From the sequence record PZ452609.1: a stretch of 64,000 nt of DNA; one strand, 5' to 3'. The position numbers and the translations under genes were made by a program. Source of the stretch: a phage. Of this stretch, positions 3,362 to 62,195 are shown in pieces; the first letter of the stretch is position 1; each line of letters begins with the position of its first letter. The notes under the pieces were generated by a model. It was not told the origin of the DNA, made no database searches, and worked only from the letters and a program-made list of their open reading frames with translations.

Positions 3362-3469
3362 AATGACCTCAAAGTTATATTAAATTTTGTATTACATTGA
3401 GTATAAAAATAAGCTATAACACCTGACTTGTCAACAGATTTTATAGCTTATTTGGCAGATTTTTTATAA

Positions 3470-5402: not shown

Positions 5403-5609
5403 TCATTTTCTCTTACCACCAATCTCTACGTCGATAACTTGAACATCACCAGCAACATCAAACTTATGAATGATGCTCTCAACAGTATAAGTCCAACCAT
5501 CAATGCGAACCAACTCACCTTCTCGTGGGACGATTGGATTACGTTGAGCTATGGTTGTAGTGGAGTGAACAACATCATAACGATAGGTATAGTTTACTAA
5601 TACTTCCAT
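5403..5609 (-). CDS. hypothetical protein
   Basis: Start moved to MEVLVNYT, which has a GAGG RBS. Confidence 0.35.
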   Translation of the reverse strand: MEVLVNYTYRYDVVHSTTTIAQRNPIVPREGELVRIDGWTYTVESIIHKFDVAGDVQVIDVEIGGKRK

Positions 5610-5619
5610 CGTGAAAACC

Positions 5620-5877
5620 TCACTCAATAACCGTAGTATGTGATTGACCATTTTTGCCATAGCTATAAGATGTTGTTGTTTGAGAGTTTGGGCATCTGAC
5701 AACAACAATATCTCTGCTTATAGCATCACCATTGAGTTTGTAGATTTTGCAGTCTTGCATCTCTGGAGGGAGGCTGTAAGAAGCATCTTTGTTTTCATAA
5801 GATGGGTTGCAGCCAGCCAGAAAAATTACTCCAAGTGCAACCATTGCTTTCACACAACTCTTAACCTTATTGTTCAC
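5620..5877 (-). CDS. putative lipoprotein
   Basis: Lipobox-like ..FLAGC.. after a hydrophobic N-terminus; GTG start with GAGAGG RBS. Confidence 0.45.
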   Translation of the reverse strand: MNNKVKSCVKAMVALGVIFLAGCNPSYENKDASYSLPPEMQDCKIYKLNGDAISRDIVVVRCPNSQTTTSYSYGKNGQSHTTVIE

Positions 5878-6009
5878 GATAGTCTACCTCTCTGTATGTT
5901 TTTAAATAGTGAGTGATGAGTTCTGGTAAGTCACTACGTTTAACGTTTGAACGAAGAAGTGTCCAGTCAAAACCTTTACCAACCCTTCCCCAGAGACTGT
6001 ACATTTTCT

Positions 6010-6243
6010 TCATAGCAACTCCAGAATATCAATACGTTCGCCTTTGAGTACTCCAGTACGGTCTTTTGCAATCTTACCGTCAACGATAAGGATGTGTGTA
6101 GACCTTAAAGCGTCGTTGTTAAAGGTTTTTACGAACTTGCTAGGCATGACTACAATGGACATCTCCTGAATTAACTCTGGAGTGTAGCAGTTATCATGAA
6201 GTTGCTGAATAACGTCTGCAAGTGTCATTTTTGATGTCTCCAA
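6010..6243 (-). CDS. hypothetical protein
   Basis: 77-aa ORF. Confidence 0.35.
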   Translation of the reverse strand: METSKMTLADVIQQLHDNCYTPELIQEMSIVVMPSKFVKTFNNDALRSTHILIVDGKIAKDRTGVLKGERIDILELL

Positions 6244-6434
6244 TATTCAATATCTACAAGTTCTTGTGCAATGCTTTTAAGGTTACTTTTAAGGAAAACT
6301 TTCTCACCACCAGACAGGGAAGTGTTATCAATGAGTCTACTCATTCTCTCAAACAACTTCTGCTTACGGTTCTTGATAGTTTCCTTTGAAGCACCTTTCA
6401 TCATCGCTGCGTGGGTTCTTCCACGATGGCTCAT
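6225..6434 (-). CDS. hypothetical protein
   Basis: 69-aa ORF. Confidence 0.3.
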   Translation of the reverse strand: MSHRGRTHAAMMKGASKETIKNRKQKLFERMSRLIDNTSLSGGEKVFLKSNLKSIAQELVDIEYWRHQK

Positions 6435-6495
6435 AAGCCCTCCTATATAAGATATAGTATAAGGTACTCTTCCATGAGAACCTTGTCAATACTAA

Positions 6496-9195: not shown

Positions 9196-9254
9196 TTTTA
9201 CTCCCTCTAAAATCATTAACCCCATACATTACTGCAAAAAATTATAAAAAGCAA

Positions 9255-9278
9255 GTTGACAATGTACTTGACAAGGTG
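9255..9278 (+). promoter_or_regulatory. conserved double TTGACA element (copy 1)
   Basis: gttgacaatgtacttgacaaggtg in the divergent region between the polymerase start and the plus-strand block. Confidence 0.5.
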
Positions 9279-9452
9279 TTAATCTTTGCGAAGTGGGTTT
9301 TTACTTAAAAGGTTACTTAACAGTTTAACTATACAGATACTTTAAAACTCTTAAAAGATTATTTAATAGCTTTTAAAAAGCTTTAAAGTATAACGTATAG
9401 AATACGTTAAGATAAAAGATTAAAACTTAATAGTTACTTAAAAGAGGCTTAC

Positions 9453-9875
9453 ATGCAGAAAATGTTTGTTCACCCAGACATAGCTGACTTTGTTAGAGCT
9501 TTGCAGAAGTTGGAAGAACTTGACATTGCTGCTCAACGGGAATATGCTCACCATCACAGGAGAATGGTTGATATACAACATGAAATAGAGTTATCAGAAG
9601 ACTATGAAGATGACTTAAAATGCTCTGTGTTCGAGCATATGAAAGACGTTGCTATAGCTAGACGTAAAGCTAAAGATACAGTTGCTTTACTAGATTCTCT
9701 TAAAAAGAGGTTGCAAAGTGGTACAGACCTGTGTAATCTAGCATCACTGATTAACGATGTTGAAACTTCTTGGGACAGGCATTACTATCCACGTTCTGAA
9801 AAGACACTTGACTTTTCTTCATCTGAAAACTTAAAATGCTCTAGAAAGAAACTTAACCAACTGAGAGAGAAATAA
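9453..9875 (+). CDS. hypothetical protein
   Basis: 140-aa ORF downstream of promoter-like element. Confidence 0.45.
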   Translation: MQKMFVHPDIADFVRALQKLEELDIAAQREYAHHHRRMVDIQHEIELSEDYEDDLKCSVFEHMKDVAIARRKAKDTVALLDSLKKRLQSGTDLCNLASLINDVETSWDRHYYPRSEKTLDFSSSENLKCSRKKLNQLREK

Positions 9876-9876
9876 T

Positions 9877-10677
9877 ATGAATACTACTGTAGACCAAATG
9901 CTTAAAGAAAAAGGTATTGATGAAGCATTTTTAATCAATGCTGTAGAAAGCATGGCTATGATTCTTCGTGGAAATAACTATACAGAACAGTTTATGCCAA
10001 AAAGCTATAACTTGCCTGAAGATAAAACTGATAACGGTGCTTTTGCAGAGCAGGTTAATATGATGTTGTCAGATACTACACTTGCCCTTGCATCTATTGC
10101 AGTCGGTGTTGATGCGCTTGCAGAGTTCATTTTTTATGAAATGCAAAAGAATGACTATATCAGGATGTCAGATGAAGAAAAGGAACTATTGCTGACTAAG
10201 GATACTGATTTCCTTATTGACACACTAATCTCATCAACAAGTGCTGTTATGGCAGTTCTTGAGAAGCGCATGGAAGAGAAACTTTCACGATATGAAAAAC
10301 TTGATTGGGGCGTAGAAGAGTTAAGCCCACGAATCAAAGAAATTATCCAGCAAACTAAAGAGTCTTTGGAAGAAGCTGTTGAAAATGACTCTGTAGCTAA
10401 TATAGAACCTCTTCAGGTGAAAGTTGCACTGATGATTCCAGCTATCTCTACGATGATGAATATCGTTGCACTAATCCAACTTTCACAGATGATGGGTGTA
10501 AGTATTGAGTTCATTGAAGAGATGACTGGTGGCGTTAGTATGCAAGCAATCAATGATGTTTTGGTGAACATCGGTGCTTCAATCATTGAAGAGAAACTAC
10601 GCATTAACTTCGGTGATGATTTTGTGAAGCAAATCTCAGCTATGGCTGAAAAAGAGTCTGCTGAGCAACTGCACTAA
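9877..10677 (+). CDS. hypothetical protein
   Basis: 266-aa ORF. Confidence 0.45.
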   Translation: MNTTVDQMLKEKGIDEAFLINAVESMAMILRGNNYTEQFMPKSYNLPEDKTDNGAFAEQVNMMLSDTTLALASIAVGVDALAEFIFYEMQKNDYIRMSDEEKELLLTKDTDFLIDTLISSTSAVMAVLEKRMEEKLSRYEKLDWGVEELSPRIKEIIQQTKESLEEAVENDSVANIEPLQVKVALMIPAISTMMNIVALIQLSQMMGVSIEFIEEMTGGVSMQAINDVLVNIGASIIEEKLRINFGDDFVKQISAMAEKESAEQLH

Positions 10678-24676: not shown

Positions 24677-24877
24677 ATGTTTAAAATATCAAAAGCGTTG
24701 ATATACATTCTCCACATTCTAATCTTCTTCTTTGGGGTTAGTGTTATGGTATGGGGTTTTTCAGACCCACAATGGAGTTTCGCATATCAGGGTCAGATGG
24801 ATTTATGGTCATGCTTCAAACCATTTTTAGGGTTAGTCATAGCATTCAGTGCATTGCCAACTAAGGTGAAATTATGA
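24677..24877 (+). CDS. small membrane protein
   Basis: 66-aa hydrophobic ORF. Confidence 0.3.
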   Translation: MFKISKALIYILHILIFFFGVSVMVWGFSDPQWSFAYQGQMDLWSCFKPFLGLVIAFSALPTKVKL

Positions 24878-25269
24878 TTAAGTTGAACAAAAAACAGTTA
24901 GAGTGGATTAAAGATTATGCCTCAGAGTGTGGCTCTTGCGAAAAGAATCACGTAAGATATTCAACATTCCATACGACCTTCACATTGTACATCAGCGACA
25001 ACGTTCTAAGTGATTCCGTAGAAGATGGCGTAGCGTTACCTAATGAATTGCTTGACAAATTAGCTGTAGTCTCTGGAACTTGGTCTGAAGAAGACGGTCA
25101 TGAATTATCTAACGATGTTGTCTTCTACACTCTTGAAAACATTATGAATCCAGAGTACATTATACTAATGACTTGTGCACAAGATTGTGTGCCATTACAA
25201 AACTTCATTAAAGAACACTGCGAAGAATTTATTACTAAACAGGTTCCTTGTCAGGTGGTGTTTGAATGA
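24874..25269 (+). CDS. hypothetical protein
   Basis: 131-aa ORF. Confidence 0.4.
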   Translation: MIKLNKKQLEWIKDYASECGSCEKNHVRYSTFHTTFTLYISDNVLSDSVEDGVALPNELLDKLAVVSGTWSEEDGHELSNDVVFYTLENIMNPEYIILMTCAQDCVPLQNFIKEHCEEFITKQVPCQVVFE

Positions 25270-25565
25270 GTAAAACAATTCGAAGAAAAGGTTTAAAGAA
25301 CGTTCATGGACTCTATGAGTGGAGAAATGAGGTACGTAACAGAGAAAATGCTTCAGATGTCTACTTCCATTCTGATATGATGTCCAGAAAAGGTGGCTCT
25401 TACGACTTCACAAGCCAGCCTTGTAGAGAGATTAAGAAGGCCACTAAACGTCTTACAAGAACACAAATAAGGCAGCTTTCTAAGACATCCTTCTTAGATG
25501 AAGATTTTGATATTGATAGCAAGTCTCCAAAGAAAGCCGCTAAGAACACTTATATGTATTGGTGA
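25266..25565 (+). CDS. hypothetical protein
   Basis: 99-aa ORF. Confidence 0.35.
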   Translation: MSKTIRRKGLKNVHGLYEWRNEVRNRENASDVYFHSDMMSRKGGSYDFTSQPCREIKKATKRLTRTQIRQLSKTSFLDEDFDIDSKSPKKAAKNTYMYW

Positions 25566-25574
25566 GGTAACTAG

Positions 25575-26060
25575 ATGAATTACATGGAGATTCGACCATT
25601 TGACACAGCTAATGGTGAAGGGGTTCGTGTAAGCCTCTTCGTAGCTGGTTGTAAGCATCACTGTGAAGGTTGCTTTAATAAGGAATCTTGGAAGTTTAAT
25701 GCTGGTAAAGAGTTCACTTATGCAAACCTTTATGGCATCATTAAGTTAATGGATGATAATGCCATCAGTGGGCTGTCAATACTTGGTGGAGAACCTCTAG
25801 ATGATAGAAATATTCAAGAGGTTACCAACATATGCAAACGTATTAAAACCGTTTACCCAGAAAAATCTATCTGGCTCTGGACAGGTTTTCAGTTACATGA
25901 AAAAATTCACCTTGATGTGATGAAATATGTTGACGTGGTGATTGATGGTAAGTATGATTCATCTAAACCAACAGTTAAACCGTATCGTGGTTCAGATAAC
26001 CAAAACCTCTGGAGAAAAGAGTACGGATGGCAAGGTGATTGTCAGTGGAGAGCAGAGTAA
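25575..26060 (+). CDS. nrdG: anaerobic RNR activating protein (radical SAM)
   Basis: N-terminal CKHHCEGC (CxxxCxxC) radical-SAM cluster motif. Confidence 0.8.
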   Translation: MNYMEIRPFDTANGEGVRVSLFVAGCKHHCEGCFNKESWKFNAGKEFTYANLYGIIKLMDDNAISGLSILGGEPLDDRNIQEVTNICKRIKTVYPEKSIWLWTGFQLHEKIHLDVMKYVDVVIDGKYDSSKPTVKPYRGSDNQNLWRKEYGWQGDCQWRAE

Positions 26061-26184
26061 ATCTCGTTATAAAGTAGGTTATCGGTAAAAGCCACTTTAC
26101 AATGTTCTACAGAACAAACTTAACCGTTGGTATCACTGAAGAAGAACTTAAAACATTTTGTGAAAAGATTGAGAGAGATATGAA

Positions 26185-26448
26185 ATGGGACTCTGGAATA
26201 GTTTTAAATCAAAAGTGAAAGCAGCACTAGCTTCATTAGGTATGCTCACTGGTGTTGATGTGACTCATCTTATGCAGAACTTCAAGATGGATGAGAAACT
26301 GGCTAATGAGATTATGAAAAGCATCTATGTAGGCCGTGGCAAAGGTGGTAAGAAGCAAGCCCATCGTCCGACTGGTGCAGCAGCAATTAAACGCGCAGCT
26401 AAGAAAGCTCGTAACCGTAACCGTAAACGTAATAAGAAGGCTAAATAA
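26185..26448 (+). CDS. small basic protein
   Basis: Lys/Arg-rich C-terminus (KRAAKKARNRNRKRNKKAK). Confidence 0.35.
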   Translation: MGLWNSFKSKVKAALASLGMLTGVDVTHLMQNFKMDEKLANEIMKSIYVGRGKGGKKQAHRPTGAAAIKRAAKKARNRNRKRNKKAK

Positions 26449-26450
26449 TC

Positions 26451-26771
26451 ATGAGCAAAGTTTATAACACTCGTAAATTACAGATTTTCTTACTGTGCCA
26501 GTTTATGGCTAGAGAACATAACTCCTACTATTGTGGTACAGGATTCATTAGTGATAATGATGGCTCATATCTCCCATTCAAAGAGGCTGTAAAACTCTTC
26601 AATGAAGAGAAAAGCTCTGAGAAAGATATTGAAAAGGTTAAATTAACCTATAGTAAGAAAGATAAGAAGATTATCTGCCTAGATAACTTTGTGAAAGTTA
26701 CCAAAGAAACTAAAGAGTTAATGGAAGAAAGTGAAATTCCATTCACAAGAATCTTGAAAGTAGCTCAGTAA
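26451..26771 (+). CDS. hypothetical protein
   Basis: 106-aa ORF. Confidence 0.35.
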   Translation: MSKVYNTRKLQIFLLCQFMAREHNSYYCGTGFISDNDGSYLPFKEAVKLFNEEKSSEKDIEKVKLTYSKKDKKIICLDNFVKVTKETKELMEESEIPFTRILKVAQ

Positions 26772-26822
26772 ACAGATACTATAAGGGGACTGTAAAGGTT
26801 CCCTTTTTATTTTGGAGGTAAA

Positions 26823-27338
26823 ATGTATCTGTCAAACCTGAAACGTTCGGTTGCAATGTCAGTTCTAAGACTCAGCTTTGATGAGCGTCAAGAGTTTATA
26901 GACTCCCACAAATATGACCCTTCAAATTCTAATCACATGGTTCTTTGGAATCGTGGTAACTTACGTGAAAGAGCACTTGTCCGTTATTACCCACACTACA
27001 CAATAGATAACCTGTATGAATGGTGTGTTGTGAAGAACACCATTGCAACACTGAACAATCTTTGCAGGTATACGGGTAAGCAAATATTTACATTAGGTCA
27101 TCACAAACCTGTTACAAAAGGTGGTGAACATCACTGTGCAAACTGGTTTATCCAAACTAAAGCTGATAACCAGAAGCAAGGAGATAGCCTCCTAAGTATC
27201 CCTAAGATGACCTATGAAGAGCAAGAGAAATATATCAAAAATAATATGCCAGATGTGCTTGACAACAACTATACAGATTTGGCAATATCTCTCCTGTTGA
27301 AGTTCGAGACAGTTTATAGGGCAACTTATAATGACTAA
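26823..27338 (+). CDS. putative HNH endonuclease
   Basis: GHHKPVTKGGEHHCANW..N HNH-like motif. Confidence 0.4.
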   Translation: MYLSNLKRSVAMSVLRLSFDERQEFIDSHKYDPSNSNHMVLWNRGNLRERALVRYYPHYTIDNLYEWCVVKNTIATLNNLCRYTGKQIFTLGHHKPVTKGGEHHCANWFIQTKADNQKQGDSLLSIPKMTYEEQEKYIKNNMPDVLDNNYTDLAISLLLKFETVYRATYND

Positions 27339-27609
27339 AGAAAAGTGGGAGATTTTACCATTAGTCAGTGAAGGAGGTAATGGTTGTGAAATGTACATGA
27401 TACGTGGTCATGTTCCAGAGCCAATTGCACTTGAGATGGTAAACAACTTTACAGATGGTTCTTACAAAGACTTAGGCGAACCAACTGTCAAGCAACAATG
27501 GGTTAAACCTGTACCAGACAGCACAGGTAACTGTAGTGTACTTTATCACGTTGTAGACCCTGCAAAATGCAAATCTGCAATGGCAGTAACAAACGTAACT
27601 TTTGATTGA
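27331..27609 (+). CDS. hypothetical protein
   Basis: 92-aa ORF. Confidence 0.35.
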   Translation: MTKEKWEILPLVSEGGNGCEMYMIRGHVPEPIALEMVNNFTDGSYKDLGEPTVKQQWVKPVPDSTGNCSVLYHVVDPAKCKSAMAVTNVTFD

Positions 27610-27620
27610 GAGAGAAAACT

Positions 27621-28502
27621 ATGAAAACATCTATCCGTGTTACAGTTCATTCACCAACTAAAGGGACTCATGAAGAAGAGTTTAACATCGTCCAATTCCC
27701 TTCTGGTGAGATTGGTGGACACTTTTCGCCAGAGTTTGTTGATTTTACTGCTTATGCAGCATCATCCATCAACAATGTGATTATGATTGTAAAAGGTTAT
27801 GACAAGGACACATTGTTTGCTGTGGCACTTGCTAAAGAAGCAATTGATGATTTAATTCCTCATGATTATGCTTTAAAGACTGTCATCTTTTACTACTTAC
27901 CAAATGCACGATATGACCGTCACATGTTTAAAGGTGACGCAGCAGCTTTAAAGGTTTTTGCTAAACAGATTAATGCAATGGGATTTGGCGCAGTCTGTGC
28001 AGTTGACCCTCACAGCTATGTACCAGATAACCTGTTTAACTGCTTCCAGAGTATTCCTCAAAAGGAGATTGCAGTCCACTATGCAAATGACCCACTGGTT
28101 GATTACTTAGTAGCCCCAGATGCAGGTGCTGCTAAGAAGGTTGCAGAGACCGCTAAAGAGGTGGATAAACCATATATCACAATGTCTAAGGTGCGTAACC
28201 TTAAGACTGGTGAAATTACTGGTATGCGAATCCTTGATGATGTTGATTTGACAGATAAAACCGTCATGATTCTGGATGATATCTGTGATGGTGGTCGAAC
28301 CTTCATAGAAGCAGCTAAGCATCTCCGTGAAGCAGGTACAAAACGTGTGGAACTCTATGTAACACATGGTATCTTCTCTAAAGATGTTGAAAACCTTCTT
28401 GACAATGGTATTGACCATATCTACACTACAAACTCTTTAGGGGAAGCTAAAGACCGTGGCTTAACACATTATGGTCAAGTTACTGTAGCAAACCTTGATT
28501 GA
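27621..28502 (+). CDS. ribose-phosphate pyrophosphokinase (Prs)-like enzyme; candidate ADP-ribose pyrophosphokinase
   Basis: PRPP-binding-loop-like ILDDICDGGRT; ATG start with GAGAGAG RBS; immediately upstream of the Nampt-like gene. Confidence 0.7.
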   Translation: MKTSIRVTVHSPTKGTHEEEFNIVQFPSGEIGGHFSPEFVDFTAYAASSINNVIMIVKGYDKDTLFAVALAKEAIDDLIPHDYALKTVIFYYLPNARYDRHMFKGDAAALKVFAKQINAMGFGAVCAVDPHSYVPDNLFNCFQSIPQKEIAVHYANDPLVDYLVAPDAGAAKKVAETAKEVDKPYITMSKVRNLKTGEITGMRILDDVDLTDKTVMILDDICDGGRTFIEAAKHLREAGTKRVELYVTHGIFSKDVENLLDNGIDHIYTTNSLGEAKDRGLTHYGQVTVANLD

Positions 28503-45779: not shown

Positions 45780-46478
45780 TCGACGCAGCGGGGCTAAATA
45801 GCCCCAGATACCTGAAAAGCTCCTTCTCATAGGGGCTTTTTTACGTCTATAAAGAGACTCTATACAATCCCTTTCCTTTCCTTCCTAGAATCTATCCCGT
45901 ACCTTAAAAGCAATAACTCTATAGCTTACTCTATAACCCCTTATCAAATCAACTTAAATATAAGCCCATAACCCGAAAGGGAAGGGCAACCATTTAAACG
46001 CTCTATAAAGCCCTATAACAGCCTTATCAACCTAACTTAAGCAATCATATTAACCCACTCTAAAAAGCCCTTTATAGAGCTTTCTAGAGCCTTAAAAGAA
46101 TCTTATAAGGGTGTGAGCTTTATCATCTCGTTAGCTATCTTGTGAACTACTAAAAAGGGCTTGTTAGTGTCTTAAAAGTATGTTATAGGGGCTATAAAGT
46201 TACTTTGAAGTAGCTTAAAAGTTACGTAAATGCTAGCCCCCTTAACATTTTCTTAACAATTTCTTAACAATCCCTACATAGTTATGCTTTTAAGGCACTT
46301 GTTAGCAACTTGTTAGCCCCTTGTTAAATCTCTGTTAAGACCACGTAAAAGCCTTGTAAGAACCTTTGACATAGCCTTAAAAGCTCCTGTAAAGCCCTAT
46401 AAAGAGCTATCCATACAGTTGAGGGGTAGATACTAGGAAGAGGCTTAAAAGAGCTTACAAGGAGCTATAGAGAGCTTT

Positions 46479-46599
46479 TAAAAGGTATGTTTAGAGAATC
46501 ACTAAGAGAGAAAGGGAACGATAAGAAAAGAGATAGTGACCATGTTAATAGCTTGTTAAAAAGATTAAACACTTGTTAGGAACTTGTTAATTATCTTAA
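46479..46599. repeat. direct repeat copy 1 flanking the N gap
   Basis: About 120 bp identical to 46700-46818. Confidence 0.8.
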
Positions 46600-46699
46600 N
46601 NNNNNNNNNNNNNNNNNNNNNNNNNNNNNNNNNNNNNNNNNNNNNNNNNNNNNNNNNNNNNNNNNNNNNNNNNNNNNNNNNNNNNNNNNNNNNNNNNNN
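46600..46699. other. assembly gap (100 N)
   Basis: Run of exactly 100 n. Confidence 0.95.
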
Positions 46700-46818
46700 T
46701 AAAAGGTATGTTTAGAGAATCACTAAGAGAGAAAGGGAACGATAAGAAAAGAGATAGTGACCATGTTAATAGCTTGTTAAAAAGATTAAACACTTGTTAG
46801 GAACTTGTTAATTATCTT
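46700..46818. repeat. direct repeat copy 2 flanking the N gap
   Basis: Identical to 46479-46599. Confidence 0.8.
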
Positions 46819-47652
46819 AACAAAATAACTCTTTAAAATTAACTTGTTAGCTCTTGTTAGTTATCTGTTAAGATTCTGTAAAGCCCTACCAAAGCTTGTT
46901 AGAAAACTGTTAAGTTCTTGTTAGTTCTGTTAAGAAACTGTTAAGACCTTTGAAGAGATGTTAAGAGCTTGAGAGAGTTGTTAAGATGTTGTTAAGGATA
47001 TTTTAAAATTTTGCAAAGTACTTGTAAGGGAGCTGTTAAGGGCTACCAAGCAGATATACATCTTCTACAGATATTTTTGAGTTCCTTCAAAGACCCTAAA
47101 AAATGACTTGACAGTCTTATTTTATAAAAATTTTAAAATTCTGAATAATTACTTATACAGTCTTTTAAAAATACAGGTAGAAACAGGCTTATAAGATACC
47201 TTGTTAGTACCGTGTTAGACCTTGTGAGATAAGGTCTGTAAAGATATTCCTGTTAAGTTTGTTAAAACAGTCTATATAGAGGCTTAGTAGTGCCTAGTGA
47301 ACACCTATAGAGAGTATCATAGCTGACATAGAGATTAAGGGGTGTATAGAGGCTTCTAAGAGCGTATAGAGAGATGGTTAAGGTGATTGTATAGGTTGTT
47401 AAGAAGGCTTGTTAGAAGAGTGTTTAGAGGGCTATTTAGAAGGGTTATACAGAGGGGCTATTAAGACCACTAGATAGTTACTAAGACACTATATAGTACT
47501 ATATAACTATATATAGAGAGTAAGATTAAGAAGGTTGTTAAGAAGGATAGATATTTTATTCACATATGATGGTGACCCAGAGGTTGGAACAACCGATAAA
47601 ATTTTTATAAAAATTAAAAAAAGCCCCCAATTAAGGAGGCTCTTAAGATATT

Positions 47653-48276
47653 TTAAATCAGTGTTTCCAGAACTGTTTTTAGTGATGACTTGGTTGTCTG
47701 ATAAAAATGAGTAAAGCCGTTGTTATTATCGAATACCTGCATCATGATATCATCTCCCTTGATTGGGTACACTCGGATATCATAGTGAAAACCATTAAAG
47801 ACACAAGAGCCATTACAGAATGCACTAAAGTCATCCACTGAGATATACTCTTCATGTCCTGTGATTTTTATACAGATACCTTTACTCGGTCTCTTAGGAT
47901 TAATATCTTCCATCACAGACATATTCTGTCCACCAAGAGATACCATAGTGACCACTTTACGGTTCTTCTGTCTAAAGTACATCTTAACTTTCTGCAAAGT
48001 GTCTTCATAGAATGGATAAGACCTATCTACAAAGATTCCTTCAAGTGGCTCTTTACCATTTTCAACTTCTCGGTTATGCCGTACTGCAAAGATAATTTGT
48101 TCGAACCAGTCAAGATTTTCTTCGGAGAGTGCTTCCCGAACATCCTTCCAGTCAAGGACTAGATAGTTACCTTCAACATCTTTTAAGTTATCTTTTTCCA
48201 TATCTATCACACCATTATCGTAAAACTTGATATTCTGGTACTGCGAATTTATTACTATTGTTCTTGATGAGGTCAT
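47653..48276 (-). CDS. hypothetical protein
   Basis: 207-aa ORF. Confidence 0.45.
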   Translation of the reverse strand: MTSSRTIVINSQYQNIKFYDNGVIDMEKDNLKDVEGNYLVLDWKDVREALSEENLDWFEQIIFAVRHNREVENGKEPLEGIFVDRSYPFYEDTLQKVKMYFRQKNRKVVTMVSLGGQNMSVMEDINPKRPSKGICIKITGHEEYISVDDFSAFCNGSCVFNGFHYDIRVYPIKGDDIMMQVFDNNNGFTHFYQTTKSSLKTVLETLI

Positions 48277-55791: not shown

Positions 55792-56163
55792 ATGAAAAAC
55801 AGAACAAACAAAGGCCAGTTTAAAAAAGGCCAGTCTGGAAACCCATCTGGAAGACCAAAAGGCTCTCGTAACAAAAGCTCACTTGTAAAAGCTCAACTGA
55901 CCATTGATAATTCTGCTGAGTTTGCTGCAAAGTTGTTTGAGGCGATTGTTACAAGGGACGCTGCTAAGCTTGCAGAGTTCGGGTTAAACACAGACGATGT
56001 AACCATCAAGAGCATGATTGAAGTCGGTAAAACTATCATGACCCACTCAGCAGGTGAGATGAAAGCAATTGCAGCAGACACTAAGAAGACTCCTGATAAC
56101 GGTGGTCAGTCTCAGACAGATAACAAACCAACGTTCTCTGCTGTTGCAACCCTTAAAAAATAA
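55792..56163 (+). CDS. hypothetical protein with basic GNPxGRPKG-type N-terminus
   Basis: KKGQSGNPSGRPKGSRNK motif. Confidence 0.45.
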   Translation: MKNRTNKGQFKKGQSGNPSGRPKGSRNKSSLVKAQLTIDNSAEFAAKLFEAIVTRDAAKLAEFGLNTDDVTIKSMIEVGKTIMTHSAGEMKAIAADTKKTPDNGGQSQTDNKPTFSAVATLKK

Positions 56164-56244
56164 TTTTAAAAGATGTTGACAGACTCTATAAAGTTGCTCT
56201 AAAGTCTGTCACATCAAACAACAAATGAGAGAAGAGAGTAAAAT

Positions 56245-57660
56245 ATGAGCGAGTTATTTAAACATGCGCACCTTCATGCAGGTCGAACTGAAAATGGTGC
56301 TGTAAACCATACTTCATCAATGTCTGCTCTTGTAGACTTTTACAAAGCTGCTGGTTCAAGCCGTAGCAATGTAGAAATCTTACCAGACCTGTTCTACAAA
56401 GCTTTGCGTGAGGATGTTGATGTTGCAGTTCGTATTTTACTGCATATGCGAGATGTACGAGAAGGTATGGGTGAGCGTAAAGCCTTCAGAGCTGTTTTAC
56501 TTCAAGCGATTGAAGACAAAGTTTTAGAGTCTACGCAGGTTCTTCGCATTATGGATAAGATTGCAGAACTTGGTCGTTTTGATGACTTCAAAATCTTCGT
56601 AGGTACTCGTTTCGAGACAGATGCCTTCAAACATTTAGAAGCAGCATTACTAGACCCTGCAACAGCAGGTTTGGCGGCTAAGTGGTTACCACGAGTCAAA
56701 CCACGTCATAAGCAGTTTGTAAAACGTTTCTGCAAGTTTGCCAACTTGAGTGAGAAAGAGTACCGCACACTGTTGTCTGCACTATCTGATACAGTTGAGC
56801 AAAAAATCTCTGCTAATGAGTTTGGTAAGATTGACTACAGTAAGATTCCTTCACTTGCTGCTGCACGTTACCAAAAACTGTTTAACCGTAAAGATGGAGA
56901 GCGTTACAAAGCTTACATCGAGTCCTTATCAAAAGGTGAGACTAAGATTAACGCTGGTGCTGTTTACCCATACGATGTGATTAAATCTGTCAAGTATGGT
57001 AATGCAGATGTTGCTAATGAGCAGTGGAAAGCACTACCAAACTGGATGGCAGAAGGTGAAAACATCTTGTGTATGTCTGATGTATCAAGTTCAATGTCTT
57101 GGGTGAATTTTGGCTCCATTACTGCTCTGGATATTGGTGTATCACTTGCCTTGTATGTAGCAGAACGCAATACAGGTTGCTTTAAGAATGAGTTGATGGT
57201 TTATTCAACAAACCCTCACTTCATCGAACTGAGTGGTGATTTACGAAACCGTCATCGTCAGGTGATGCGACACGTTGAATATGGCTCAACTAACTTACAA
57301 GCAGCTTTTGACCGCATTCTTGAAACAGGTAAAAGAAACAACTTGACTCAGAAAGATATGCCAAGTAAGCTTATCATCTTCTCCGATATGGAGTTTAATC
57401 AGGTTGATGGAGCTAACGGTCGTACAAACTTTGAAGCAATTCAGAGTAAGTACAAAAAAGCTGGATATGAGATGCCACAACTGGTATTCTGGTACTTAGC
57501 AAACCGTAATGGTACTTGCGAAGTATCTGTTAAGGATAACGGTGTAGCAATGGTATCAGGGTTCTCTCCAGCCACTTTAAAAGCTCTGCTTGGTGGTGAG
57601 AAGTTTGACCCAATCAGTGTAATGCTCAAAGCAGTAATGATTGACCGTTATATCTGGTAA
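56245..57660 (+). CDS. Ro60-like protein (TROVE-like N-terminal region + von Willebrand A domain)
   Basis: C-terminal MIDAS-like DVSSSM..STNLQ..FSDMEF (vWA); N-terminal NGAVNHTSSMSALVDFYKAAGSS follows the Ro60 TROVE pattern G.V...T....L..F...GS; immediately upstream of the tRNA cluster. Confidence 0.5.
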   Translation: MSELFKHAHLHAGRTENGAVNHTSSMSALVDFYKAAGSSRSNVEILPDLFYKALREDVDVAVRILLHMRDVREGMGERKAFRAVLLQAIEDKVLESTQVLRIMDKIAELGRFDDFKIFVGTRFETDAFKHLEAALLDPATAGLAAKWLPRVKPRHKQFVKRFCKFANLSEKEYRTLLSALSDTVEQKISANEFGKIDYSKIPSLAAARYQKLFNRKDGERYKAYIESLSKGETKINAGAVYPYDVIKSVKYGNADVANEQWKALPNWMAEGENILCMSDVSSSMSWVNFGSITALDIGVSLALYVAERNTGCFKNELMVYSTNPHFIELSGDLRNRHRQVMRHVEYGSTNLQAAFDRILETGKRNNLTQKDMPSKLIIFSDMEFNQVDGANGRTNFEAIQSKYKKAGYEMPQLVFWYLANRNGTCEVSVKDNGVAMVSGFSPATLKALLGGEKFDPISVMLKAVMIDRYIW

Positions 57661-57678
57661 AAAGTTTTAAAAAGGGTA

Positions 57679-57707
57679 TTGACAATGTGTTTAATACCCT
57701 TTAATAT
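57679..57707 (+). promoter_or_regulatory. sigma70-like promoter upstream of the tRNA cluster
   Basis: TTGACA, 17-bp spacer, TAATAT. Confidence 0.45.
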
Positions 57708-57825
57708 GTTCTACATAGAAACGAAATGAGAGCTTTTCTAAGATGCTGAAAAATATTTTAAAAAAGTTCTTGACAACCACTAAAAAATAATGTTAAAGTG
57801 GTTACATAAAGTTTGAAAAGTTTAT

Positions 57826-57905
57826 CTCCGTTTAGCTCAGTCTGGTTTAGCAGCACTTGCTTTGGGAGCAAGGGGTCGAGGGTTCAAATCCTTCAACGGA
57901 GACCA
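57826..57905 (+). tRNA. tRNA-Pro (anticodon TGG)
   Basis: Hand-folded cloverleaf, anticodon loop ttTGGga, T-loop ggttcaaatcc, 3' CCA encoded. Confidence 0.7.
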
Positions 57906-57912
57906 AATTAAT

Positions 57913-57990
57913 GTTCCAGTAGACAAAATGGTAAAGTCACCACTCTTTCAAAGTGGATATTTGAGGGTTCAAATCCCTTCTGGAACGCCA
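57913..57990 (+). tRNA. tRNA-Glu (anticodon TTC)
   Basis: Anticodon loop ctTTCaa; acceptor gttccag/ctggaac. Confidence 0.7.
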
Positions 57991-58080
57991 GTTTTGACAG
58001 AAGACCAATTACAGCAAACTTAATCTACTCATCTGAAAGTTAATCGGACAAAGAAGATATTTGGTCTGGTCATTAAGAAT

Positions 58081-58157
58081 TGCGGGTATAGAGAAAGGGC
58101 GTCTCACATGTCTCATTAGCATGGTATCGGCAGGTTCGACTCCTGCACCCGCCTCCA
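58081..58157 (+). tRNA. tRNA-Met (anticodon CAT); possible 1:72 mismatch (initiator-like) or register ambiguity
   Basis: Anticodon loop ctCATta; T-arm gcagg-ttcgact-cctgc. Confidence 0.6.
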
Positions 58158-58241
58158 AATTTACAGAAGACCGTTTACAGCAATATTTATTAAATTTTTA
58201 GCGGAAAAAATTGAAATATACGGTCTGGTAATACTAAACAT

Positions 58242-58318
58242 GGTTAGGAAGCACATAAGGTATGTGCGGTCGCCTGTTAAGCGAATGGCACAGGGTTCGA
58301 ATCCCTGACTAACCGCCA
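58242..58318 (+). tRNA. tRNA-Asn (anticodon GTT)
   Basis: Anticodon loop ctGTTaa. Confidence 0.65.
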
Positions 58319-58387
58319 AATTTAGGAGAGAAGCGATTGCTCACCGATTTGTAAGGTACAAGTCCTTAGCCTGAATAGAAATTAAAT

Positions 58388-58475
58388 GTGTCGTTATCCC
58401 GTAGATGGTAGCGGTGGGGACTGTAAATCCCTTGTCATTGAGACTCGGTAGGTTCGACTCCTACACGGCACACCA
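58388..58475 (+). tRNA. tRNA-Tyr (anticodon GTA), long variable arm
   Basis: Anticodon loop ctGTAaa; about 14-nt variable arm. Confidence 0.7.
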
Positions 58476-58480
58476 ATAAA

Positions 58481-58558
58481 GGTTATGTAGTTTAATTTGG
58501 TTAAAATACTCCCCTGTCACGGGAGATGATGAGGGTTCAAATCCCTTCGTAACCGCCA
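58481..58558 (+). tRNA. tRNA-Asp (anticodon GTC)
   Basis: Anticodon loop ctGTCac. Confidence 0.65.
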
Positions 58559-58705
58559 ATTTTGAGAGGGCTATTTAGCCCCTCCCTTAAAGGGTTCTTA
58601 CGAGTATTCTTTAAAGGAGCAGAAGACCAAATACAGCAAGTTATTTAAAATTTCAAGCCAATTTAATTTTGAAAAATTTAAAACTTGGTCTGGCTCAACA
58701 AATTT

Positions 58706-58838
58706 ACAGAAGACCGTTTACAGCAAAACTTAAACAATCTATTTCTCCGGTAAAGAAAAGGCGAAGGTTCGATTCCTTCACTCGGCAGATGTCGAGTTGG
58801 TGTAATGGTAGCACTTAAGATGATAAACAACGGTCTGG
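58706..58838 (+). ncRNA. permuted tRNA-like element, candidate Y RNA-like (YrlA-type) RNA
   Basis: Order is anticodon-like stem-loop, T-arm gaagg-ttcgatt-ccttc, acceptor 3' strand actcggc, short loop, acceptor 5' strand gtcgagt, D-arm tggtgtaatggtagcac; enclosed by an 8-bp helix agaccgtt/aacggtct. Confidence 0.45.
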
Positions 58839-58840
58839 TA

Positions 58841-58982
58841 ATTATCTTTGTAGATAAGTTATTAAGCTTACCTGTGAGTATGCGACCACAAAGGGTGAAA
58901 GGGTAAATTCTAGATTTAAACCCAAAAAGGCACATCGCTACAGACCTTAAGCAAGTCTGGGTAGCTTATCTACAAAGATAAT
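58841..58982. repeat. 19-bp perfect inverted repeat enclosing about 100 nt
   Basis: attatctttgtagataag at 58841 and cttatctacaaagataat at 58963. Confidence 0.7.
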
Positions 58983-58987
58983 TTAAT

Positions 58988-59063
58988 GGAAGTGTAGCAG
59001 AATGGTGATGCGGCAGACTTTTAATCTGACAGGCGATGGGTTCGAATCCCTCCACTTCTACCA
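58988..59063 (+). tRNA. tRNA-Lys (anticodon TTT)
   Basis: Anticodon loop ctTTTaa. Confidence 0.65.
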
Positions 59064-59141
59064 AATTCACCCTTAACTAAGAAACACCTGCGCGGCTGGA
59101 AACACCCACTCAACAGTTTCTCTAACTAGGGTACTTATTCT

Positions 59142-59218
59142 GGTTCAGTCGCAGATAAGGTAATGCAAGGGTCTCATAAGCCCTATGAATGTGGGTTCGA
59201 TTCCCATCTGAACCTCCA
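59142..59218 (+). tRNA. tRNA with CAT anticodon (Met or lysidine-type Ile2)
   Basis: Anticodon loop ctCATaa. Confidence 0.65.
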
Positions 59219-59219
59219 A

Positions 59220-59295
59220 GCTGGTATAGTTAAGAAGGTTATAACACTCCCCTGATAAGGGAACATCGGTGGTTCGATTCCACCTACCAGTACCA
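59220..59295 (+). tRNA. tRNA-Ile (anticodon GAT)
   Basis: Anticodon loop ctGATaa. Confidence 0.65.
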
Positions 59296-59310
59296 ATTTC
59301 AATAAAGTTG

Positions 59311-59339
59311 TTGACATTGAGATGTGACTACTTTATAGT
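59311..59339 (+). promoter_or_regulatory. strong sigma70-like promoter inside the tRNA cluster
   Basis: TTGACA, 17-bp spacer, TATAGT. Confidence 0.55.
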
Positions 59340-59570
59340 AACCTTAGTTTTCGTTGCGTAGCGTCTATTTTGCAAATTTAAAATAAATGCAAACGACAAT
59401 GTTTTTCTGGCAGTAGCTTGATAGGCTAAACACCAGTGAGGTCTTCCAATCCCTCATCAAAGAATTTGGCGTACTAGCCCACGGTATGATTAATAAGGTG
59501 GGCAACATTCTAAAGGGTATCCCTTATGGGGCTTGGCTTAAATGCAATGAGTACCCTTTAAAATGTTAAT

Positions 59571-59647
59571 GCACCCTTAGTTCAATTGGATAGAGCAACG
59601 GTCTTCTAAATCGTTAGTTACAGGTTCGAATCCTGTAGGGTGTGCCA
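59571..59647 (+). tRNA. tRNA-Arg (anticodon TCT)
   Basis: Anticodon loop ctTCTaa. Confidence 0.7.
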
Positions 59648-59795
59648 ATTAGTTAGCAGATTACTTAGACGACCTAAGCGGGTCTTCCTGTAGGGAGGTG
59701 GTCTGTATCTCATGTTTTCCAGAACATGTAAATAATCTGAGAAGGGGCTTTACAGTGTTGAGATAATACGGTAAGCTTCGAATTATAGTTTTAAT

Positions 59796-59866
59796 AGGGG
59801 TGAGCTATGGCAGCAATAGAGTCTCCAAAATTCTTGATTAGAGTTCGAATCTCTACACCCCTGCCA
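59796..59866 (+). tRNA. tRNA-Trp (anticodon CCA) with shortened D-arm
   Basis: Anticodon loop ctCCAaa; T-arm tagag-ttcgaat-ctcta; only about 71 nt. Confidence 0.5.
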
Positions 59867-59880
59867 GAAAAGGTGCTTGT

Positions 59881-60285
59881 ATGAAACTTTGTAGAAAATG
59901 TTCTCAAGAGAAGCCTTTAAGTTGCTTTCATAAAAGAGGGAATGGCTATCAGTCTGCTTGCAAAGATTGTAAAGCTAAGTACTCAGCAAAGAGATACAAA
60001 GAAGACCCTACTTATAAAGCAAAAAGGAAAGTTAGAGCAAAATATGACAAAAAGAGAAACAGAGAGTTCCTTAGTAGATATAAAAAGTTTTGCAAATGCA
60101 GAATATGTGGTGAATCCGAGCCAGTAGCTTTAGATTTTCATCACTTAGACCCTAAAGAGAAAGATTTTGCTCCAAGCAATCTTAAGACTTACTCTAGGGG
60201 AACTATTAAGCGTGAAGTTCGTAAGTGTGTTGTGCTTTGCTCAAACTGTCATAGGAAAGTTCATGCAGGACTGTTAAGTATTTAG
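59881..60285 (+). CDS. HNH endonuclease embedded in the tRNA cluster
   Basis: Cys-rich N-terminus plus FHHLDPKEKDF..CSNCHRKVH HNH motif. Confidence 0.7.
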   Translation: MKLCRKCSQEKPLSCFHKRGNGYQSACKDCKAKYSAKRYKEDPTYKAKRKVRAKYDKKRNREFLSRYKKFCKCRICGESEPVALDFHHLDPKEKDFAPSNLKTYSRGTIKREVRKCVVLCSNCHRKVHAGLLSI

Positions 60286-60298
60286 CAGTCTTATTAGG

Positions 60299-60388
60299 GG
60301 TAGGTAGCGGCTAATGGTAGCCAAACTGTCTTGAAAACAGTTGCCACTGTAGAGATACGGTGAGGGTTCGACTCCTTTACTTACCGCC
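60299..60388 (+). tRNA. tRNA-Ser (anticodon TGA), long variable arm
   Basis: Anticodon loop ctTGAaa; variable stem-loop gccactgtagagatacggt. Confidence 0.7.
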
Positions 60389-60642
60389 TAATAAGATTTA
60401 AAGCCAAGCTTCATTCGGATGTTGCTTTGGTATACCGCGTGTATTGTTGTACACACTGATAAAACACCTAGTAGGTGTCACGGAGAAGAGATAATATCAA
60501 GCTCTCCAAAGGTTCTAGTCACCGGATTAAACAAGACTATGCAAAGGCCTTTTTAGGTCTTTTAGAGGGCTTCTAAGGTCATTACAGCTTGTTGTGGAAC
60601 CTTGTTGCTTAGGTTCTTAGAAGTTCTCTAAAAAGGTTTAAT

Positions 60643-60721
60643 GGGAGATTGACGGCAACTTGGTAGACCTATCTCGCTTAGAACGAGATGCTTGAGGGTT
60701 CGAATCCCTTGTCTCCTACCA
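60643..60721 (+). tRNA. tRNA with TAG anticodon (Leu-type) but short variable arm
   Basis: Anticodon loop ctTAGaa; T-arm gaggg-ttcgaat-ccctt; irregular D-arm. Confidence 0.5.
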
Positions 60722-60728
60722 AATTAAT

Positions 60729-60804
60729 GCAGGTGTAGCAAAATGGTTATGCGGCTGACTCTTAATCAGTAAGACGATGGGTTCAATTCCCTCCACCTGT
60801 ACCA
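60729..60804 (+). tRNA. tRNA-Lys (anticodon CTT)
   Basis: Anticodon loop ctCTTaa. Confidence 0.65.
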
Positions 60805-60810
60805 AACAAT

Positions 60811-60886
60811 GGGGTCATAGTTTATATGGTTAAAATTCGAGTTTTGCAAACTTGGGAACTGAGTTCAATTCTCAGTGACTCCACCA
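60811..60886 (+). tRNA. tRNA-Ala (anticodon TGC)
   Basis: Anticodon loop ttTGCaa; G3:U70 wobble pair in acceptor stem. Confidence 0.75.
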
Positions 60887-60892
60887 ATTAGT

Positions 60893-60967
60893 GCATCCAT
60901 AGTTTAAACGGGAAAATTACAGTCTTCCAAACTGAGGTTGAGGGTTCGATTCCCTCTGGATGCTCCA
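60893..60967 (+). tRNA. tRNA-Gly (anticodon TCC)
   Basis: Anticodon loop ctTCCaa; discriminator U. Confidence 0.65.
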
Positions 60968-60974
60968 AATTAAT

Positions 60975-61050
60975 GCTCCTATCGTATAATTGGTTATTAC
61001 GGTTGCCTTGTAAGCAACTTATCAGGGTTCGAGTCCTTGTGGGAGCACCA
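60975..61050 (+). tRNA. tRNA-Thr (anticodon TGT)
   Basis: Anticodon loop ctTGTaa with perfect 5-bp anticodon stem. Confidence 0.7.
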
Positions 61051-61146
61051 ATTCAGAGGTCAAGTGAAAGACCGCTTTGAGTCAACTGAAGACCGTAACA
61101 AATTCCACGAAGTTGAGTTAGCGGCACAACTTCAGACCTCTTTCAT

Positions 61147-61221
61147 ACTCGCTTAGTTTATATGGTAAAACATCACCCTTACAAGATGAAGAAAAAGGTT
61201 CAAGTCCTTTAGTGAGTACCA
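61147..61221 (+). tRNA. tRNA-Val (anticodon TAC)
   Basis: Anticodon loop ctTACaa. Confidence 0.6.
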
Positions 61222-61222
61222 T

Positions 61223-61300
61223 GTTCCAGTATCCCAATTGGCAGAGGATGCAAGCTCAAACCTTGTATTAGTGACGGTTCGAATCCGTCTTGGAACACCA
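61223..61300 (+). tRNA. tRNA with CAA anticodon (Leu-type) but short variable arm
   Basis: Anticodon loop ctCAAac; T-arm gacgg-ttcgaat-ccgtc. Confidence 0.5.
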
Positions 61301-61305
61301 ATTTT

Positions 61306-61381
61306 GCAGGATTAGTTCAAATGGAAAGAGCAACAGTCTACGAAGCTGTTAATAGGGGTTCGAATCCCTTATCCTGCGCCA
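61306..61381 (+). tRNA. tRNA-Arg (anticodon ACG)
   Basis: Anticodon loop ctACGaa. Confidence 0.7.
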
Positions 61382-61398
61382 GATAAAAAGGTGATACT

Positions 61399-61641
61399 AT
61401 GCAAACATTAACAGTAGTTGAACATGAAAACTGTGAGAGTATTGAGTTTGTCAGGGTCATTGGTGTTGAACACCACATTTTCTTAAAAGTGGGATACTTA
61501 TGTGACCCCGCTAGAGTAGAAAGCTTTATACGTGATTGTTTTGGTGGTAGACATCTGAAGAGTGTTATTTTTGAGACAGTTTTACCAGAAGGTTTAGAAA
61601 CGAATAATAACATTTACCTCCTTACGAGGATTAGACAATGA
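61399..61641 (+). CDS. hypothetical protein (inside tRNA cluster)
   Basis: 80-aa ORF with AAGGTGA RBS. Confidence 0.45.
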   Translation: MQTLTVVEHENCESIEFVRVIGVEHHIFLKVGYLCDPARVESFIRDCFGGRHLKSVIFETVLPEGLETNNNIYLLTRIRQ

Positions 61642-62195
61642 GATACTTAAAGTATGCTTCATGGATTTTCTTAGCTTTGTTAGAGCCATTTGCAGCAATC
61701 TTAGCAGTTATCTTAGCACCTTTTGTAGTTCCATTCTACAGTGAGAAGAAAGGACACTTACCTTTCGGGTTCAGATGGATGGAGACTTATGACAACCCAA
61801 TTGATGGTGATGCAGGTCATATCAAACGATGGGCTAAGATTAGAAAGATTGGTAAGCTTGGTGTCTACATGCAGAGAGTTGGATGGCTCTGGAGAAACAA
61901 AGCTTATAACTTCTCTTACCATGTATTAGGAAGAGATGTAAAAGATGTTACTAAGTGGAAAGGTAATATCAACGTAAGTTCTAACCCTGAAGATAATCAG
62001 ACTGGTTATCTCCTAATGTGGAACAGTAATGCTTGGGGATTATTCGCTTTTGTGCCGTCAATCAAAATCTTTGGTAAACAATTTTACTGGAGAATTTATG
62101 TTGGGTGGAAACTTAAAAGTGTTGTCCCAGAAGAAAGAGCATTTTCAAGGGAAAGAGTTATGTTGGCATTCTTTATTCATCCACTAAGAAAGTAA
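61638..62195 (+). CDS. membrane protein (inside tRNA cluster)
   Basis: 185 aa with N-terminal TM segment. Confidence 0.45.
   Translation: MRYLKYASWIFLALLEPFAAILAVILAPFVVPFYSEKKGHLPFGFRWMETYDNPIDGDAGHIKRWAKIRKIGKLGVYMQRVGWLWRNKAYNFSYHVLGRDVKDVTKWKGNINVSSNPEDNQTGYLLMWNSNAWGLFAFVPSIKIFGKQFYWRIYVGWKLKSVVPEERAFSRERVMLAFFIHPLRK

What the first reader, a model, noticed from the sequence alone, without database searches (positions are those of the whole stretch)
46479..46818. 100-N gap flanked by identical 120-bp sequence: probable assembly join
The sequence on both sides of the N run is identical, which is what results when overlapping contig ends, terminal repeats or a collapsed tandem repeat are joined artificially. 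The true copy number and junction here are unknown, so any biological reading of this locus is provisional.
Basis: seen in the sequence. Interest (0 to 1): 0.4.

Follow-up and report, generated by a model that had tools for sequence, protein, structure and literature searches.

The report
Scaffold gap inside phage terminal repeat
The 100-N run flanked by identical sequence is an assembly join where two contig ends overlapping by 121 bases were glued together. Nothing is missing, and the spot happens to lie inside the short terminal repeat of a Felix O1-like coliphage genome.

Summary
The only N run in the window is 46600-46699 (100 N). It is abutted on both sides by an exact 121-bp sequence (not 120): 46479-46599 equals 46700-46820.

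The window is a Felixounavirus (Felix O1-like myovirus), 99-100% identical to E. coli O157 typing phages 1 and 15. Deleting the gap plus one copy (221 bp) gives a sequence collinear with the gapless typing phage 1 genome. Over 3,080 bp there are no mismatches and a single 11-bp indel 230 bp away.

About 255 related phage records carry the 121-mer homologue. The roughly 20 extra matching places come from records with two copies; in the three such records checked, the two copies are the record's own terminal repeats.

A sister record (typing phage 15) is built the same way, as de Bruijn contigs joined by 100 N, and its genome-adjacent contigs overlap by exactly 77 nt.

So this is an artefact: overlapping contig ends joined by a placeholder gap. 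It disrupts no gene.

The join lies inside the predicted 591-bp direct terminal repeat (46236-47047 minus the artefact). That repeat is packed with conserved, 11-bp-phased TGTTAR motifs. Interest is low.

The parts
46479..46599 (.). Left copy of the 121-bp overlap: the last 121 bases of the contig to the left of the gap.
   Evidence: Identical to 46700-46820. Maps to KP869100.1 26346-26466, the same bases as the right copy.
46600..46699 (.). Placeholder scaffold gap of 100 N. No real sequence corresponds to it.
   Evidence: It is the only N run in the window. The flanks overlap instead of being separated in typing phage 1. The same 100-N convention is used between contigs in the sister record KP869113.1.
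46700..46820 (.). Right copy of the 121-bp overlap: the first 121 bases of the contig to the right of the gap. It is redundant. Removing 46600-46820 (221 bp) restores the true sequence.
   Evidence: The merged sequence aligns to typing phage 1 over 3,080 bp with 0 mismatches and one 11-bp indel.
46236..47047 (+). Predicted direct terminal repeat (DTR) of this phage. It is 591 bp once the 221-bp artefact is removed, and the overlap occupies DTR positions 244-364.
   Evidence: The exact terminal repeats of Pr103Blw (581 bp), ZX4221 (591 bp) and CRP22 (579 bp) all map end to end onto 46236..47047. The boundary sequences GCCCCCTTAACAT... and ...GTTAAGGGCTACC are conserved. PhageTerm DTRs are reported in PMC8303462 (581 bp) and PMC6454146 (613 bp).
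45780..47652 (.). Non-coding region between two convergent gene blocks (+ strand genes end at 45779; - strand genes end at 47653). It contains the DTR.
   Evidence: ORF list. No CDS is annotated in the homologous stretch of typing phage 1, wV8 or Pr103Blw. No Rfam family reaches its threshold.
46241..46271 (-). Three tandem 11-bp units CTTAACAnTTn (TGTTAAG on the - strand) at the very left edge of the predicted DTR. Typing phage 1 has one unit fewer.
   Evidence: TRF: period 11, 2.8 copies. The 11-bp indel against typing phage 1 is at 46241-46251.
46300..47039 (+). Array of 20 + strand TGTTAR hexamers inside the DTR, mostly 11 bp apart. Four of them lie in the 121-mer.
   Evidence: Positions and spacings. 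0.66 copies are expected in shuffles, with a maximum of 4 in 2,000. CTTGTTAG occurs 10 times in this non-coding region and 0 times in the other 62 kb. Motif columns are 93% invariant against 64% elsewhere across 10 phages.

Best explanation
This is a scaffolding artefact, not a biological duplication.

**What happened.** The genome was assembled with a de Bruijn-graph assembler. Neighbouring contigs, or the two ends of one circular-path contig, share exactly one k-mer, here 121 nt. Those ends were then concatenated with the conventional 100-N 'gap of unknown length' instead of being merged. The true sequence has one copy of the 121-mer and no gap, so deleting 46600-46820 (221 bp) corrects it.

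**What the locus is.** It is the non-coding end region of a Felixounavirus genome. The join sits at positions 244-364 of a predicted 591-bp direct terminal repeat. That repeat is present once in a circularly collapsed assembly and twice, about 88 kb apart, in virion DNA.

**What is shown and what is inferred.**
- Shown: the exact overlap, a single copy in relatives, collinearity after collapse, and homology to defined terminal repeats.
- Inferred: the assembler type and k value, and that this particular phage has the same termini as its relatives.
For: - The 121-bp identity abuts both edges of the only N run.
- In KP869100.1 the left flank maps to 26346-27934 and the right flank to 24866-26466. 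They overlap by exactly the 121-mer.
- The merged model aligns to KP869100.1 over 3,080 bp with 0 mismatches and one 11-bp indel at 46241-46251.
- The whole window is collinear with that genome, and the only break is at the gap.
- Contig B of KP869113.1 (382 bp) crosses the junction with one copy.
- 255 related records hold the 121-mer homologue in 275 places. The two-place records that were listed, and the three checked in sequence, carry it 233-364 nt from the record start and again at the record end.
- KP869113.1 is made of contigs joined by 100 N, and its genome-adjacent contigs overlap by exactly 77 nt at every junction. This is the same signature at a different k. Its paper states it was assembled with SPAdes into 15 contigs (PMC4429339).
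- No tandem repeat with a period above 24 bp exists in the gapless homologue.
Against: - No reads are available, so the single copy rests on comparison with relatives, not on this sample.
- 121 is not a default k of the common assemblers, and the source record was not found. The assembler story is therefore an inference.
- A randomly placed break would fall in the 591-bp terminal repeat only about 0.7% of the time, so something about this region may have provoked the break.
- The right edge of the overlap (46599|46600) coincides to the base with the site of a 22-bp insertion in wV8/TP15-type relatives. This hints at possible within-sample heterogeneity.
Confidence: 0.9

Rival explanations
1. 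The join is still an artefact, but the break was provoked by real heterogeneity in the sequenced phage stock. A sub-population carrying (or lacking) the 22-bp palindromic insert ATTGGTATTGTTACCAATCCCT at 46599|46600 made the assembly graph branch at the k-mer that ends at 46599. The left contig therefore stops there.
For: - The overlap ends exactly at the last base shared between the insert-free type (this window, typing phage 1) and the insert-bearing type (wV8, TP15, two metagenome contigs).
- The typing phage 15 stock is reported to have been a mixed DNA preparation, because propagation induced temperate phages (PMC4429339).
- Its assembly is also fragmented in this same region.
Against: - An unresolved bubble should also break the right contig at the re-convergence k-mer, which starts at 46820. 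It does not.
- TP15 itself has a mismatch at 46482, inside the 121-mer, so a TP15-type contaminant would not share this k-mer.
- The coincidence has a chance of a few percent, given several indel sites in about 600 bp.
Confidence: 0.12
2. The N run marks the place where the two physical ends of the linear virion genome were joined, and the 121 bp is this phage's own terminal repeat.
For: - The join lies in the terminal-repeat region of relatives.
- Felix O1-like phages are reported to have short terminal repeats (PMC3185647, PMC8303462, PMC6454146).
Against: - Relatives' repeats are 579-613 bp, with conserved boundaries at window 46236 and 47047, and those boundary sequences are intact here.
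- The left contig carries repeat positions 1-364 and the right contig positions 244-591, so neither contig ends at a repeat boundary.
- The 121-mer is internal to the repeat and has no boundary-like feature.
Confidence: 0.04
3. The duplication is genuine, or is a collapsed larger tandem repeat: the genome really holds two or more copies of a unit that contains the 121-mer, and the assembler could not resolve the intervening sequence.
For: - The region is repeat-rich and variable in length among relatives. For example, wV8 spans 2,071 bp where the query spans 1,600 bp.
- It contains several short-period arrays.
Against: - No related record examined has two nearby copies.
- The length differences among relatives are accounted for by 11-bp units and 21-22-bp inserts, not by units of 121 bp or more.
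- Typing phage 1, with no mismatch across the 3-kb junction region (one 11-bp indel), is gapless with one copy.
- TRF finds no long-period repeat.
Confidence: 0.03

Closest known systems
k-mer overlap between neighbouring de Bruijn-graph contigs (or the ends of a circular-path contig) joined with a 100-N gap of unknown length
   Same: - The overlap is exact and of odd length.
- It abuts the N run on both sides.
- Collapsing it restores the sequence seen in a gapless relative.
- The sister record KP869113.1 shows the same construction with 77-nt overlaps.
   Different: - In KP869113.1 the overlapping contigs were not placed next to each other; here they were.
- 121 is not a default k, and the assembler used is unknown.
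Short direct terminal repeats of Felixounavirus: Pr103Blw 581 bp and Ro111lw 613 bp by PhageTerm; Felix O1 inferred
   Same: The region 46236-47047 (591 bp after correction) aligns end to end with the exact terminal repeats of three relatives, with conserved boundary sequences.
   Different: - The termini of this particular phage were not determined.
- The 121-bp duplication is not the terminal repeat itself but an internal piece of it, duplicated by the join.
Arrays of short phased repeats next to or within phage genome ends (for example the repeat arrays beside the T7 terminal repeats) and 11-bp iteron arrays bound by DNA-binding proteins (for example plasmid R1 parC). Both are cited from general knowledge.
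   Same: There are many copies of one short motif on one strand at helical-repeat spacing, in a non-coding region at the genome end, and they are conserved across relatives.
   Different: No binding protein is known here. The role in packaging or end recognition is an inference, and the motif (TGTTAR) has no sequence relation to those systems.

Membership tests
Scaffold gap with overlapping contig ends (assembly artefact) | N run of a conventional placeholder length | tested here: met
   Exactly 100 N, and it is the only N run in 64 kb.
Scaffold gap with overlapping contig ends (assembly artefact) | The sequence ending at the gap is identical to the sequence starting after it, with no offset | tested here: met
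   46479-46599 equals 46700-46820, 121/121.
Scaffold gap with overlapping contig ends (assembly artefact) | Gapless relatives carry one copy, and collapsing restores collinearity | tested here: met
   KP869100.1 aligns over 3,080 bp with 0 mismatches and one unrelated 11-bp indel. Contig B of KP869113.1 spans the junction.
Scaffold gap with overlapping contig ends (assembly artefact) | Reads or read pairs of the same sample span the collapsed junction | not testable with these tools
   No reads are available, and the source record was not identified.
Genuine tandem or nearby duplication | Two nearby copies present in independent assemblies of close relatives | tested here: not met
   There are 255 records and 275 places. 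The second places that were checked are the record-end terminal repeats. TRF finds no long-period repeat.
Felixounavirus short direct terminal repeat | Homology over the full length to terminal repeats defined in relatives, with conserved boundaries | tested here: met
   Three exact terminal repeats of 579-591 bp map to 46236..47047 at 87-91% identity, and the boundary sequences are conserved.
Felixounavirus short direct terminal repeat | Double read coverage and read-start pile-ups at the repeat boundaries in this phage | not testable with these tools
   This needs raw reads and PhageTerm.
Protein-binding repeat array (iteron-like) | Multiple copies of one short motif at helical phasing, over-represented and conserved | tested here: met
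   There are 20 copies in 591 bp against 0.66 expected, the spacing is mostly 11 bp, the strand split is 28:4 in the non-coding region, and motif columns are 93% invariant against 64% elsewhere.
Protein-binding repeat array (iteron-like) | A protein that binds the motif | not testable with these tools

The most novel reading that the evidence does not exclude
The gap happens to sit in a functionally interesting element. The roughly 590-bp Felixounavirus terminal repeat is essentially a conserved, strand-specific array of 11-bp-phased TGTTAR sites, with three inverted copies at its left boundary. This array could be the recognition scaffold for the packaging or end-generating machinery. It is also a landing pad for a 22-bp palindromic mini-insert, found at four or more different positions and orientations in different phages, one of them exactly at the edge of the overlap. 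As far as my literature searches went, neither the array nor the mini-insert has been described as such.
Probability: 0.3. Interest if true: 0.35.

Novelty: not a real feature. Interest (0 to 1): 0.08.

Why it matters
- **Data hygiene.** The record overstates the genome by 221 bp and marks as 'unknown' a junction that is in fact known. Removing 46600-46820 gives a closed sequence.
- **No effect on genes.** No gene is affected, because the region is non-coding.
- **Repeat and end calls.** Anyone scanning this locus for repeats, terminal repeats or genome ends (for example, tools that read direct repeats at contig ends as proof of completeness) would be misled by the 121-bp duplicate.
- **The real feature.** The true biological feature here is the 591-bp terminal repeat that surrounds it.

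Tried and rejected
- **Looking for the source record.** An exact 49-nt pattern specific to this genome found only six known Felixounavirus contigs of other lengths in IMG/VR. Exact-protein look-ups for two window proteins found nothing. The 701-bp region has no match in complete E. coli genomes, so it is not a prophage.
- **Is the window the KP869113.1 (TP15) record?** No. It differs from that record by scattered mismatches and has a different contig order.
- **Is the window a simple TP1/TP15 chimera from a mixed sample?** No. Several bins differ equally from both.
- **Do the 'repeat_region' features of the Danish wastewater phages annotate the terminal repeat?** No. They mark only 30-45-bp repeats.
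- **Is there a known RNA family in the non-coding region?** Nothing reached a gathering threshold.
- **Promoter and terminator scan.** Promoter-like sites are not above the shuffled expectation. The only clear feature is one strong terminator downstream of the - strand gene.
- **Velvet with k 90-120 (as used for most typing phages, PMC4429339) as the source of a 121-nt overlap.** Velvet overlaps are k-1, and k must be odd, so 121 does not fit. A SPAdes-type K=121 would fit, but this remains unproven.

Full report
**1. The observation**

The window has a single N run, 46600-46699, exactly 100 bases. The 121 bases before it (46479-46599) are identical to the 121 bases after it (46700-46820). 121 is the maximal overlap. 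The 121-mer occurs nowhere else in the window and has no reverse-complement copy.

An exact 121-bp match that abuts both edges of a gap is not a chance event.

**2. What genome this is**

Both flanks match about 255 phage records, all Felix O1-like myoviruses of the genus Felixounavirus. The closest are E. coli O157 typing phage 1 (KP869100.1, 88,531 bp, no Ns) and typing phage 15 (KP869113.1, a partial genome).

The whole window is collinear with KP869100.1 on its reverse strand. The only break in the alignment is at the gap. The window differs from both typing phages by scattered substitutions, so it is a third, very close genome rather than either record. It has no match in complete E. coli genomes.

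**3. Copy number**

- In KP869100.1 the left flank ends at 26346 and the right flank starts at 26466. The two flanks overlap by exactly the 121-mer instead of being separated.
- A model with the Ns and one copy removed aligns to KP869100.1 over 3,080 bp with no mismatch and a single 11-bp indel. That indel is at 46241-46251, about 230 bp from the join, and is one unit of an 11-bp tandem repeat.
- A 382-bp contig of the independently assembled typing phage 15 also crosses the junction with one copy.
- Among 255 related records the 121-mer homologue occupies 275 places. In the records with two places that I examined (Pr103Blw, ZX4221, CRP22), the two copies are the record's own terminal repeats at its two ends.
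- Tandem Repeats Finder sees nothing with a period above 24 bp in the gapless homologue.

There is therefore no support for a genuine nearby duplication or for a collapsed long tandem repeat.

**4. How the artefact arose (inference)**

The sister record KP869113.1 is a set of contigs joined by 100-N runs. Contigs that are neighbours in the genome overlap by exactly 77 nt at every junction I could map. Its paper says it was assembled with SPAdes into 15 contigs (PMC4429339). This is the textbook signature of de Bruijn-graph contigs, which share one k-mer at each graph vertex.

The 121-nt overlap here is the same signature at another k. There are two possible routes. Either two neighbouring contigs were concatenated with a placeholder gap, or a single circular-path contig was re-cut elsewhere and its overlapping ends were joined with a placeholder gap. 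I could not find the source record, so the assembler and k are not established. Velvet with k 90-120, used for the other typing phages, would not give 121.

**5. What the locus really is**

The gap lies in a 1.9-kb non-coding region (45780-47652) between two convergent gene blocks.

Three relatives whose records carry exact terminal repeats are Pr103Blw (581 bp, determined with PhageTerm, PMC8303462), ZX4221 (591 bp) and CRP22 (579 bp). Their repeats all map end to end onto window 46236..47047, with conserved boundary sequences GCCCCCTTAACAT... and ...GTTAAGGGCTACC. A 613-bp repeat is reported for Ro111lw (PMC6454146), and short terminal repeats were inferred for Felix O1 itself (PMC3185647).

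After correction, this phage's predicted terminal repeat is 591 bp, and the 121-mer is positions 244-364 of it. The left contig carries repeat positions 1-364 and the right contig positions 244-591. Neither contig ends at a repeat boundary, which argues against the Ns marking a join of the physical genome ends.

**6. An unexplained coincidence**

A random break would hit the 591-bp repeat only about 0.7% of the time.

In addition, the right edge of the overlap (46599|46600) is, to the base, the site where wV8, typing phage 15 and two metagenome contigs carry a 22-bp palindromic insert, ATTGGTATTGTTACCAATCCCT.

A sub-population with that insert could have made the graph branch there. Two points count against this. 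An unresolved bubble should also have broken the right contig at 46820. And typing phage 15 itself differs inside the 121-mer, at 46482. I keep this as a minor rival (0.12). It changes why the break occurred, not the conclusion that the duplicate and the Ns are artificial.

**7. Side observation on the terminal repeat**

The repeat holds 20 + strand TGTTAR hexamers, mostly 11 bp apart. Shuffles give 0.66 on average and at most 4. Three inverted copies in an 11-bp tandem lie at its left edge.

CTTGTTAG occurs 10 times in the non-coding region and never in the other 62 kb. In a 10-phage alignment, motif columns are 93% invariant against 64% for the rest (Fisher p = 7e-13).

This looks like a protein-binding array at the genome end, plausibly for packaging or end formation, but that role is inferred. 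No Rfam family reaches threshold in the region.

**8. Verdict**

This is an ordinary assembly join. The fix is to delete 46600-46820.

It is not a biological feature, so interest is low (0.08). The most novel reading left open concerns the surrounding terminal repeat, not the gap.

Noticed in passing
window 46236-47047: This is the predicted 591-bp direct terminal repeat of the phage (after removing the 221-bp artefact). Its boundaries are conserved with the exact terminal repeats of Pr103Blw, ZX4221 and CRP22.
   Followed up: yes
window 46300-47039 (+ strand); also 46162 and 47202-47541: There is a dense, strand-specific array of TGTTAR hexamers, mostly at 11-bp spacing: 20 in the terminal repeat against 0.66 expected. 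The motif cores are nearly invariant across 10 phages while the spacers vary. It may be a protein-binding array at the genome end.
   Followed up: partly
window 46241-46271: An 11-bp tandem CTTAACAnTTn (the inverted form of the motif) sits at the left edge of the terminal repeat. This genome has 3 units and typing phage 1 has 2. This is the only difference between the two over 3 kb.
   Followed up: yes
relatives at sites homologous to window 46598|46599, ~46845, ~46903 and ~46502 (L011, L014, L015, L019-L022; TP15 contig B in L005 1526-1907): A 22-bp palindromic mini-insert ATTGGTATTGTTACCAATCCCT (stem ATTGGTA/TACCAAT) occurs at four or more different positions in the terminal repeat of different Felixounaviruses. 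In VpaE1 it is in reverse orientation, and one metagenome contig has two copies. It is absent from this window. In IMG/VR it was found only in seven contigs of 87-94 kb.
   Followed up: partly
alignment A1 columns 334-354 (homologous to window ~46530): A second insert of about 21 bp, AAGTTGTGTTTGTTAACAACC, which also contains an inverted repeat and a TGTTAA core, is present in three relatives (IMGVR 87510, VpaE1, IMGVR 87609). It explains the 142-bp matches to the 121-mer.
   Followed up: no
L005/L006 (KP869113.1, typing phage 15): The public record is a scrambled concatenation of contigs joined by N runs of 100-972 bases, and neighbouring contigs overlap by 77 nt. The three small contigs that cover this same non-coding region sit at the start of the record, far from their true neighbours.
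   Followed up: yes
window 2001-10000 and 56000-62000: The window is a mosaic relative to typing phages 1 and 15. For example, 3957-6228 is only 86.6% identical to TP1. 56-60 kb is identical to TP15 but diverged from TP1, while 34-36 kb is identical to TP1 but not to TP15. This suggests recombination among these stocks.
   Followed up: partly
window ~47619-47644 (- strand): A strong intrinsic-terminator-like hairpin (10-bp stem followed by a T run) lies just downstream of the last - strand gene (47653-48201). It is also the source of the weak sub-threshold Rfam hits.
   Followed up: no
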